Shown: piece by piece, positions 34,674-37,600 of the stretch
Numbering within the stretch: position 1 is the first letter of the stretch
Layout: every line of letters begins with the position of its first letter
NCBI GenBank assembly: GCA_965649765.1
Contig: OZ287750.1
Location: 42,656,001-42,720,000, forward strand
Direction: 5' to 3'
Length of the DNA: 64,000 nucleotides
DNA from: Bispira polyomma
Lineage: Eukaryota
Notes under the pieces: model-generated
What the model saw: the letters and a program-made list of their open reading frames with translations, nothing else
What the model was told of the DNA's origin: nothing
Databases searched by the model: none
Made by a program: the position numbers and the translations under genes

Positions 34674-37600
34674 ATGGAAAGGAACTACGAAAGTGGAATG
34701 GCTGAAGGTACTCAGATTCACATCGAGACAGTGTCGCTGGAGATGTTGAAAACATTCCATGGAATTGGCGACAAAAGAGCTGAGGAAATTGTGGCAGCTC
34801 GTACAAGATTTGGTGGGAAGCTGACCAGACAGCAGTTTTCTAAAATAGATATTCCAGACAAACTTAAACAAGCGATGTTGACCTCAGGAATAGTGACATT
34901 TTCAGTAAGCTCTAAAATCTGTACAGAGTTAGGAAAATCAGGGTTGTCAAGTATTGATGAAGATAGTGACTCGGAGGATTCACAGAAGTCTCATGTTGAT
35001 TCGGTGGCACAGGGACTTATCGCATCAGGTGGTCTAGTTGAAGGATCTTTGTTTCAATTGTCACCAAAGAAGGAAGTCGTCGCATCAGGTGATGGACAGC
35101 AGGATGTTGTCAAGTCAATGGGTGTGGAGTCACAATTGGACATCATGGCAAGTACACTTGATGTTACTGAAAAGTCATTAGAAGTAGTAAACAAAAAGAC
35201 TGAGTCTTTAGATGTCATGATTGCATCAAAACTTTGTCAGACTTAGGTATCAAGGTGGATATAAGCGCTGAGGTAGCTTGGAAAAAGTTTGAGGAAATGA
35301 AGGTGGAATTTGGTGTCGCCATTAAACCAGTCGCTGACAAATGTGATATGGTGGAAGGTGCGGTTGTTAAATTGGGCCAAAAGGTGGAGAAAAGCCAAAA
35401 AGAGGTTCAGGATAAATTGGCCTGCACAGACGGACAAATTAGTCATCTTCAACAGAAAGTGGCTACAGGAGAGAAGGACTTGGGTGACATTAAATCGCAC
35501 ATCCAGACAGCGGAAGAGAAAGTAGAAGGTGTACAGCAAGAAGTACAAAATCTTGATGTTAAAGTGACCCAGGTTAGACAGGAAACTACCCATCAGCTGT
35601 CTACTATGAAACAGGAAGTCAGTGTCATTTCATCAGACATTAGATCCACCGCAAGGGAGGTTGATGAAGTGAAATCAGATGTGGGTACCAAAGTTAATAT
35701 CTTGCAGAAAGACTTAAGCGTTGTAAAGATGTTCGCCCAGTCTGCTAAAGAGGAGACAGACCATATCAAATCAGAACTTTATCAGCACGTCGCATCAAGC
35801 AAACCTGACGTTCTCGCACTGGACGCCAGCATTCAAAGGGTTCAAATGGATTCATTGAATGATATTCAGAAAACCCAGAGTGATATGCAAAGTAATACTC
35901 AGCAAATTATGGGACTCAGAAAGTCAGGAATTCACATTAGATCCAAATTTTGCGAACCTGAAGCAAGATGTTGGTGTTTTAAAACAGGATGTGGATAACC
36001 TTAAATCTCGAACATACACACCTTTTACTGATGCCGTGGCAACACAGAGTCCCGAGTGTAATTCTCTACAGGAGGATCTAAATAAATTTCTTTAAAGAAT
36101 TATCTGATTTGAAAACAGAGCGTGATTCTGTCGTGGAACGCTATCTACTGGAGAAGGAAGCGCAAATAAAACGTGTGCAGCAACTACAAGGAGCTAGAAG
36201 TGATATGGTTGCAAGAGCTGGACAGCTTGTTGAGCAGAAACAGGCATTCGAGGAGGATATTCTTCGCGAAGAGGCTAAACTGGTTTGCAATTGGGTGACA
36301 GCTGGTGTTACAGAACTGAAACAAAAACATGGGGTGGACTTTACATTACCATCGGGATGGCAAAAGGACTTGGAGTGGACTGGGTATGAGCTACTAGTAT
36401 CAAGTATCAATGACTCAAGTAAAGCCAGTCAGTACACCTCATCCATAGCTCAGTGTTCCAGGTAATCTGTCATCCACACCTGTAATTGAAGCAGTTTACA
36501 AAAAGGTGTTTAATGAAAGAACAGTTAATTCACGTTATGTAAGAGGGGACAGGAAGTCGTATGAACCACCTGCTGTAAACAGGACATCCGGCAAGAAATC
36601 ACGTCCTACCAAACCCCCAGTTACCAACGTAATGTTTGACTTTGAAGGTGATGATGCTTCTAGTTCAACAGGAAGTGAAGCAGAGAGGTCATCAGTTGCA
36701 GCACGTCACACTGGCACATCTCCCGTAGTTCGAAATGTCAGACATCGAGGAAGCTTAGATGTTCCTAAACCCACTTTCTCAGGGGAGCACTGGAGAGGTT
36801 TCATTGGACAATTTGAAACGTATGCCAGGAACATGCCATGGACAGAGGCCAACAAAATTGATGCTTTTTTCCATGTGTCTGAGGAAAGAAGCTTCAGAGT
36901 ACTTTAGCATCCTATCTGCTCAAGCAAGAGGTAGTTTCGAGGAAATCAAAACGAAATTTGAAGCTCATTTTGAGAAAACAGATATTCCCAGTACTATTAG
37001 ATGGGAGTTACTTGCAGTGGAGCAAAGGGAGGATGAATCATTAGAAAGGTTTTTATCCAGACTCCAGAAAATGATCATCAGCGCATATCCAGATGCAGCT
37101 CAGCAGCAGTTGAATTGTGCGATGTTTATTGAAGCTTTCTTGAAAGGTTGTAGAGACAAACATTCCGCGTTAGCAGCTGGTACAAAGTCTCCTTAGACAT
37201 TAGAGGAAGCATTCAAGTATGTGAAACAGGAACAGCATGTGAGGAGGGCTATATATGGTAAAAAGGCATATGCCAAGATGGTACAGCAATTTCAATTTGA
37301 ATCAGATAGTTCAGATGGGGATGTTGCTGTAAATATCAAGGCCAGGCAAGTTACTCCAATGAAGAACTTTGATGTCAAACCGAAAGTTCAGTTTGCCGAC
37401 CAATCGTCTCTGGAAAGTAAAGTGGATCGACTAGAGAGGACTTTAAGTGAGTTAGTGCGTGGAATGAACCGTTCACCACCCAGGACTCAACAGCAATCAA
37501 GTTTCAATCAAATAACTTGTTTTGAGTGTGGTTATAGGGGACATTTTGCACGAGATTGTCCTAGGAGAGGATACTCACAAGGGAGTCCAAGGGCGAATGG

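What the first reader, a model, noticed from the sequence alone, without database searches (positions are those of the whole stretch)
34716..34850. Gag begins with a ComEA-like helix-hairpin-helix DNA-binding domain
Seen: IHIETVSLEMLKTFHGIGDKRAEEIVAARTRFGGKL at the N-terminus of ORF1. Established: this fits the ComEA/HHH_3 pattern (ININTAS.EEL..LPGIG...A..I...R...G.F) of sequence-nonspecific DNA-binding modules, found in bacterial ComEA and animal EEPD1 and not a standard Gag domain. Inference: an HhH on the structural protein plus the TatD ORF gives this element an unusual DNA-binding and nuclease accessory pair, possibly for cDNA retention or chromatin tethering.
Basis: partly seen in the sequence, partly recalled or inferred. 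Interest (0 to 1): 0.72.

Follow-up and report, generated by a model that had tools for sequence, protein, structure and literature searches.

The report
Gypsy Gag with ComEA-like HhH head
This is a decayed jumping gene whose capsid protein, like that of a wide group of relatives, starts with a helix-hairpin-helix fold known from DNA-gripping proteins, which likely lets the particle cling to the host's chromosomes, and the same elements usually carry a gene for a predicted DNA-cutting enzyme.

Summary
Observation confirmed and extended. Bases 34698-34901 encode a ComEA/EEPD1-type (HhH)2 fold (Pfam HHH_3 28.3 bits, cut-off 27; model matches ComEA, Z 9.4) at the start of gag in a broken 14.5-kb Ty3/gypsy element. 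Natural unbroken ORFs join HhH, coiled coil and capsid in other copies and genomes. At least 15 of 35 Gags found by capsid alone start with it, and a Mytilus edulis protein does too. The first hairpin and the basic residue matching ComEA's essential lysine are kept (19 of 21); the second hairpin's GhG is lost (0 of 22). TatD lies downstream of 61 of 84 HhH sites. A pol-less subfamily puts TatD in the -1 frame right behind gag. Best guess: weak, multivalent DNA binding on the particle's outer face, tethering it to host chromatin. Binding, role and any functional HhH-TatD link are untested. Ten literature searches found no description. This scan noted both HhH-Gag and the TatD ORF3 earlier in sea-urchin DNA (e1-7881707, e1-7881919).

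The parts
31617..31913 (+). 5' LTR; ATAT target duplication at 31613-31616
   Evidence: the two LTRs are 91.5% identical
31915..31927 (+). primer-binding-site-like sequence (the tRNA-Leu likeness is recalled, not tested)
34674..34901 (+). gag start (ATG 34674 or 34698) and ComEA/EEPD1-type (HhH)2 domain; first hairpin intact, second degenerate
35204..35998 (+). predicted coiled-coil stalk of Gag (in another frame in this broken copy)
36082..36465 (+). conserved Gag segment upstream of the capsid; no Pfam family
36759..37270 (+). capsid domain (Retrotrans_gag), interrupted in this copy
   Evidence: E 4.6e-9; relative P0173 models like PNMA2/Arc capsids
37512..37562 (+). CCHC zinc knuckle (nucleocapsid)
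37922..37970 (+). predicted -1 frameshift site TTTAAAC, gag stop and stem-loop
   Evidence: same heptamer in families A, B, C, and in L073 and L074
37922..42547 (+). pol (protease, RT, RNase H, integrase), broken; 570-bp tandem duplication at 39517-40658
42625..42643 (+). predicted splice acceptor and start codon of ORF3
   Evidence: same motif in families A and B
42641..45449 (+). ORF3 in the env position, broken in its first half; TatD domain at 44643-45449 with HxH, E, H, H and D residues
45826..46129 (+). polypurine tract and 3' LTR (45840-46129), then ATAT

Best explanation
The segment is a ComEA/EEPD1-type helix-hairpin-helix domain that forms the front end of Gag in a wide lineage of Ty3/gypsy retrotransposons, where it likely binds DNA without sequence preference and would, from the outer face of the particle, tether the particle or pre-integration complex to host chromatin. 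Shown: the fold, its place at residue 1-70 of Gag ahead of a coiled coil, capsid and zinc knuckle, its spread, and its coding constraint. Inferred: (1) DNA binding through the one intact hairpin; (2) weak single-domain affinity made strong by hundreds of Gag copies; (3) outward position, because in Ty3 the capsid N-terminal part lies outside and the nucleocapsid inside; (4) a role like that of MLV p12 or the foamy virus chromatin-binding site, but acting on DNA directly. TatD is a co-inherited third ORF, and its link to the HhH is not shown.
For: Fold and profile. One unbroken ORF holds HhH and capsid in L031 (963 aa) and L035, in P0003/P0004/P0006/P0008 and in L074 (952 aa); in the window's own family L068 and L056 keep one frame with two stops each. 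Capsid-only search: 15 of 35 proteins start with the domain (14 by my profile; 1 more by Pfam); of 20 scanned, 4 pass the Pfam cut-off. Among 21 diverse Gags (median HhH identity 28%), the position matching ComEA's essential lysine is K/R in 19 and the second hairpin glycine of motif 1 is G in 18. ComEA K164A/K166A abolishes DNA binding (PMC9747964, passages); the residue mapping is my inference. Gag HhH domains fall on one side of a 97/94 branch against 25 ComEA-type and 3 host domains, and HhH and capsid identities correlate (rho 0.36, 0 of 2000 permutations). Coding constraint. Capsid topology: PMC6525542 (passages). Tethering precedent: PMC6021111 (abstract).
Against: There are no binding, localisation or expression data. 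The second hairpin GhG is absent in 0-of-22 fashion against 100 of 147 ComEA-type domains, and the first glycine is kept in only 14 of 21. Net charge is about neutral (median -0.5), although ComEA-type domains are similar (-1). The same fold serves other roles (Tex, Spt6, PsbU and GspK rank among the matches). Six related Gags without HhH are scattered over the capsid tree (5 changes, no better than shuffles), so the domain may be dispensable or those records truncated. Within the family, constraint on HhH (0.55, CI 0.36-0.89) is not separable from linker or coiled coil. Whether the domain stays attached to the capsid after protease cleavage is unknown. The five hits P0003/4/6/7/8 are partly circular, because two of their N-termini were in the profile.
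Confidence: 0.45

Rival explanations
1. BAF-like role in cis: after cleavage or uncoating, the domain binds and compacts the element's own cDNA and protects it from autointegration or nucleases.
For: BAF binds dsDNA through an HhH motif, bridges it as a dimer and blocks autointegration (PMC3381236 and PMC2173821, passages). The coiled coil next to the HhH could supply multimerisation.
Against: The N-terminal position points away from the particle interior. BAF was not among the 50 fold matches shown, which is inconclusive. A host BAF is expected in animals (recalled).
Confidence: 0.2
2. The domain is now mainly a protein-interaction or assembly module (a matrix-like head) that has lost most DNA binding.
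For: The second hairpin is degenerate in all 22 rows, and the charge is neutral. Non-DNA-binding users of the fold appear among the matches (their roles are recalled).
Against: The DNA-contact basic residue is kept in 19 of 21 at 28% median identity.
Confidence: 0.18
3. It binds RNA or RNA-DNA hybrids, like Tex/Spt6/TEFM-type domains, to help export, localise or capture the genomic RNA.
For: Tex (Z 8.1), Spt6 (6.1) and TEFM (6.0) follow ComEA in the fold search; Gag acts on RNA first.
Against: Sequence matches to ComEA and EEPD1 are far stronger than to Tex (E 1e-9 against 0.14), and Gag already has a zinc knuckle for RNA.
Confidence: 0.12
4. HhH and TatD form a functional pair like EEPD1 (HhH plus AP nuclease): the HhH holds DNA and TatD trims or nicks it.
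For: Co-occurrence in 61 of 84 sites against about 0.001 by chance and in L074. In 6 of 11 pol-less copies TatD is in the -1 frame behind gag. TatD enzymes are AP endo- and 3' exonucleases (PMC10085689).
Against: Shared descent explains the co-occurrence. L073 has TatD and no HhH found. In full-length elements TatD is a separate ORF with its own predicted acceptor. An in-frame junction arises by chance about one time in three, and it is a single event.
Confidence: 0.2
5. The match is chance, or a host or bacterial fragment lying next to gag.
For: The window's own Pfam score is near the cut-off, and its gag is broken.
Confidence: 0.01

Closest known systems
ComEA DNA-binding domain (Pfam HHH_3 PF12836; PDB 8dss, 8dfk, 2duy)
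   Same: Fold over 65 residues, first hairpin, essential basic residue.
   Different: Second hairpin lacks GhG; no ComEA oligomerisation or SLBB domain found; fused to a retroelement Gag.
EEPD1 HhH repeats (PDB 9yi2; an EEPD1-like host gene lies at L096)
   Same: Profile match (hhalign probability 91.5).
   Different: EEPD1 has two repeats and its own nuclease domain; Gag has one domain, and the Gag domains form a separate branch. The donor is unresolved.
Ty3/gypsy (Metaviridae) Gag, e.g. Ty3, Arc, PNMA2
   Same: LTRs, capsid, zinc knuckle, PR-RT-RH-IN order.
   Different: Gag of 560-1130 aa with an HhH head and a coiled-coil stalk; TatD ORF3. The named clade (e.g. MolGy1-16, PMC6238403) could not be assigned without reference sequences.
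MLV p12 and foamy virus Gag chromatin-binding site (PMC6021111)
   Same: A Gag part upstream of the capsid that could tether the particle to chromatin (functional analogy only).
   Different: Those are short peptides that bind histones; this is a folded nucleic-acid-binding-type domain. No homology claimed.
Barrier-to-autointegration factor (PMC3381236, PMC2173821)
   Same: HhH-based non-specific DNA binding linked to retroelement integration complexes.
   Different: A host protein; not matched by sequence or fold here.
Juno and Vesta LTR elements of bdelloid rotifers with a DEDDy exonuclease ORF3 (PMC5408684)
   Same: A nuclease in the env position.
   Different: A different nuclease fold; no HhH-Gag in the abstract or the two sections read.

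Membership tests
HHH_3 / ComEA-type (HhH)2 domain | Score above the Pfam cut-off | tested here: met
   28.3 against 27 for the 76-aa piece; 25.7 for the 190-aa ORF; sister families up to 39.2
HHH_3 / ComEA-type (HhH)2 domain | Compact four-helix (HhH)2 fold | tested here: met
   Model against 8dss: Z 9.4, rmsd 2.4, 65 aligned; 2duy Z 8.4 and Tex Z 8.1 are close behind
HHH_3 / ComEA-type (HhH)2 domain | First hairpin GhG and the following DNA-contact Lys/Arg | tested here: met
   Present in the window; K/R in 19 of 21 Gags; mapping inferred
HHH_3 / ComEA-type (HhH)2 domain | Second hairpin GhG | tested here: not met
   0 of 22 Gag domains against 100 of 147 ComEA-type domains
HHH_3 / ComEA-type (HhH)2 domain | Non-specific dsDNA binding | not testable with these tools
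   Needs a binding assay
ComEA competence protein | Exported or membrane-anchored protein with oligomerisation/SLBB domain | tested here: not met
   No such Pfam match; the domain heads Gag
Ty3/gypsy LTR retrotransposon | LTRs, PBS, PPT, target duplication | tested here: met
Ty3/gypsy LTR retrotransposon | Capsid plus zinc knuckle; PR-RT-RH-IN order | tested here: met
Named gypsy clade (MolGy, C-clade, CsRN1 and others) | RT/RNase H tree placement with reference elements | not testable with these tools
   No Repbase or GyDB sequences on hand; supplements of PMC6238403 were not read
TatD class II (HxH) | HxH motif and the later E, H, H, D residues | tested here: met
   Pfam 120.8 bits; alignment to YcfH
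TatD class II (HxH) | Nuclease activity | not testable with these tools
   Needs an assay

The most novel reading that the evidence does not exclude
An old animal lineage of gypsy elements carries its own DNA-handling kit: an HhH-studded capsid surface that grips chromatin, plus a TatD AP/exonuclease. Its pol-less satellites replace Pol by TatD at the frameshift, making an HhH-Gag-TatD fusion (EEPD1-like in design) and so loading a nuclease into mixed particles.
Probability: 0.2. Interest if true: 0.82.

Novelty: new variant of a known kind. Interest (0 to 1): 0.6.

Why it matters
How LTR retrotransposon particles reach chromatin in animal cells is poorly known. A folded DNA-binding-type domain at the matrix position of Gag, kept across capsids only 24-35% identical, gives a small protein that can be tested directly. 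It also means that most HHH_3 hits in such genomes are transposon-borne (23 of 28 here), which matters for annotation. The pol-less subfamily with TatD in the Pol frame is an unusual non-autonomous design.

Tried and rejected
Literature: 10 searches. Those aimed at HhH-Gag or TatD in retrotransposons gave no describing paper. One search was swamped by word-start matches (probably author names), and only listings were seen for 19 and 55. The one hit (PMC10309623) uses 'helix-hairpin-helix' for a leucine-zipper hairpin of CERV, not Gag. Subscription journals, Repbase and supplements were not seen.

The representative search was dominated by multi-HhH proteins because scores are summed; only 1 of 150 rows was a Gag fragment. 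It served as the source of comparison domains, which are unnamed and assumed to be mostly prokaryotic. Viral contigs: 0 of 77 candidates. Atlas: no result. RNA runs: no RNA holder listed. Homodimer prediction of the HhH domain: no answer. Foldseek gave no match at E<=0.001 for either model.

dN/dS between distant families is saturated, and within-family values have a low neutral baseline, so no HhH-specific selection can be claimed. My first-hairpin regular expression was tuned to Gag, and its 53-of-147 figure is not used. The ATAT/GTAT target preference (7 of 7 3' flanks) is taken as an integrase property (recalled from insect gypsy elements), not as an HhH effect. L033 and L083 also lack most of pol but do not show the same Gag-TatD junction.

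Full report
Observation. The span 34716-34850 gives the quoted peptide. The piece 34674-34901 passes the Pfam HHH_3 cut-off (28.3 against 27), while the 190-aa ORF does not (25.7). A profile from 9 distant Gags of other assemblies scores it at 43.3 bits, against at most 7.3 in 1000 shuffles. A profile of 11 copies finds ComEA and EEPD1 first in the PDB. The model aligns to ComEA with Z 9.4, rmsd 2.4 over 65 residues, followed by 2duy (8.4) and Tex (8.1); Foldseek agrees in rank but at E 0.085.

The element. It is a Ty3/gypsy retrotransposon at 31617-46129, with LTRs 91.5% identical, a PBS-like site, a PPT and an ATAT duplication. It holds capsid, zinc knuckle, protease, RT, RNase H and integrase matches and a third ORF ending in TatD. 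This copy is decayed: gag lies in several frames, and pol has stops and a 570-bp duplication. A TTTAAAC heptamer, stop and stem-loop mark the gag-pol border here, in families B and C, and (the heptamer) in L073 and L074, which predicts a -1 frameshift. A pyrimidine-rich AG precedes the ORF3 start in families A and B, which predicts a spliced message.

Continuity with gag. The genome search gave 86 matches from 135 candidates; I dropped 2 second pieces and used 84 sites, 41 close and 43 distant. I fetched 20 of each, chosen largely for long open frames. L031 has one unbroken 963-aa ORF with HhH, coiled coil and capsid; L035 has a 463-aa one. In the window's family, L068 and L056 keep one frame with two stops each. 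Other assemblies hold whole Gags of 1030-1091 aa with HhH, coiled coil, capsid and mostly the knuckle, several in many equal-length copies.

Spread. A search with the capsid alone returned 35 proteins from 7996 candidates. Fourteen start with the domain by my profile, and one more by Pfam. Five of these are partly circular, since two of their N-termini were in the profile; four distant ones (33-35% capsid identity) pass the Pfam cut-off on their own. Many of the other 20 look N-terminally truncated, and longer members of two clusters do carry the domain. A second search (11 proteins) added three more, one named Mytilus edulis. Of 5 metagenome loci, L074 is an intact element with HhH-Gag, pol and TatD ORF3; L071 has HhH and capsid; L073 has pol and TatD but no HhH found; two are fragments. 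In the own genome, 23 of 28 HHH_3 matches lie in such elements (19 seen in fetched DNA, 4 by TatD distance), 4 in host genes, and 1 is unresolved. The host species was not determined; a mollusc is a guess.

Evolution of the domain. In a 69-column tree, 22 Gag domains are split from 25 ComEA-type and 3 host domains by a 97/94 branch, and HhH and capsid identities correlate across 21 Gags (rho 0.36, 0 of 2000 permutations). This fits one old acquisition; the donor is unresolved and the tree is short. Six HhH-less Gags are scattered over the capsid tree (5 changes), which means loss or truncation. Pairwise dN/dS for the domain is 0.22-0.44 within families, 0.32 between B and B', and about 0.11 between C and D, near saturation. 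Codon-position ratios show coding constraint (0.55, CI 0.36-0.89; leader 0.88), not different from the rest of gag.

Residues. ComEA needs K164 (K166 in Geobacillus) for DNA binding, and changes at K193 and K197 in the second hairpin cost only 2-4-fold (PMC9747964, passages). The alignment puts an Arg of the Gag domain on that lysine (numbering inferred). It is K/R in 19 of 21 Gags; the two glycines are kept in 14 and 18 of 21. The second hairpin GhG is absent from all 22 Gag domains but present in 100 of 147 comparison domains. So one contact hairpin per domain is predicted, with weak binding that a Gag lattice would multiply.

Mechanism. In Ty3 the capsid N-terminal domain forms the outer layer, its N-terminal extension runs outward, and the nucleocapsid and genome lie beneath (PMC6525542, abstract and passages). 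The model of relative P0173 shows the HhH as a separate domain, then a long helix, a disordered stretch and a PNMA2/Arc-like capsid (weak E-values). The HhH would thus face outward, which favours contact with host DNA over retention of cDNA. MLV p12 and foamy Gag show that Gag parts can tether particles to chromatin (PMC6021111, abstract). I give this 0.45. Rivals: BAF-like compaction of the element's own cDNA (PMC3381236, PMC2173821, passages), a protein-interaction head, and RNA binding.

TatD. It lies within 15 kb downstream of 32 of 41 close and 29 of 43 distant HhH sites, against about 0.001 by chance (143 of 150 rows used). Of 20 further TatD loci, 8 showed an HhH within 10 kb upstream; extending 7 of the other 12 found no whole domain, and most looked deleted or broken there. 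The class II residues are present (PMC10085689, abstract and passages). A pol-less subfamily (11 of 20 close copies) shares one junction that places TatD in the -1 frame behind gag in 6 copies; the other 5 have indels before the junction. This is one event with about a one-in-three chance of being in frame, so it is a lead, not proof of pairing.

Known or new. Nuclease ORF3s are known from rotifer elements (PMC5408684, abstract and two sections). Passages of PMC6238403, PMC8556966 and PMC13524379 did not mention HhH-Gag or TatD; PMC4777378 (abstract) shows ComEA domains fused to bacterial DNases. Searches found no description; Repbase, subscription journals and supplements were not seen and could hold one. 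Earlier notes of this scan report HhH-Gag and a TatD ORF3 in sea-urchin DNA; they are unchecked leads, and the pol-less fusion was not found among the notes. Verdict: a real, apparently undescribed Gag architecture of a wide gypsy lineage; new variant of a known kind; interest 0.6.

Noticed in passing
L052, L053, L054, L056, L058, L061, L063-L066, L068 (join of window 38003 to about 44192): A pol-less subfamily with one shared junction at different genomic sites (11 of 20 close copies fetched; 17 of 32 HhH-TatD distances are under 4 kb, against 12 over 8 kb). It keeps gag and puts TatD in the -1 frame behind the slippery site in 6 of 11 copies. Its right half differs from full-length copies (net dS about 0.1), suggesting recombination.
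   Followed up: partly
L074:4404-9728: The pol of an intact relative carries a Macro domain (140.7 bits) ahead of the protease.
   Followed up: no
window 46130-46133 and six other copies: All 7 3' flanks seen start with ATAT or GTAT, and the LTR ends in ATA rather than CA.
   Followed up: partly
window 32411-32561 and 33993-34143: An inverted pair of 151-bp arms built of 29-bp palindromic units in the 2.7-kb 5' leader; possibly an inserted element or part of the leader.
   Followed up: no
window 42641-44640: The N-terminal two thirds of ORF3 hold an RG/RS-rich stretch, a short conserved block and a Cys/His cluster with no Pfam match, conserved at 27-54% between families.
   Followed up: no
L099, L101-L103, L107: A further family with a very short Gag, in which the capsid starts about 190 codons after the HhH.
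   Followed up: partly
L096, L098, L097, L100: Host HHH_3 hits: two EEPD1-like genes, a Tex/SRBD1-like piece (names by eye and recall) and one unresolved.
   Followed up: partly
window 57280-58740, 59095-59341, 47501-55004: Degenerate 21-bp tandem arrays and a long inverted duplication outside the element.
   Followed up: no
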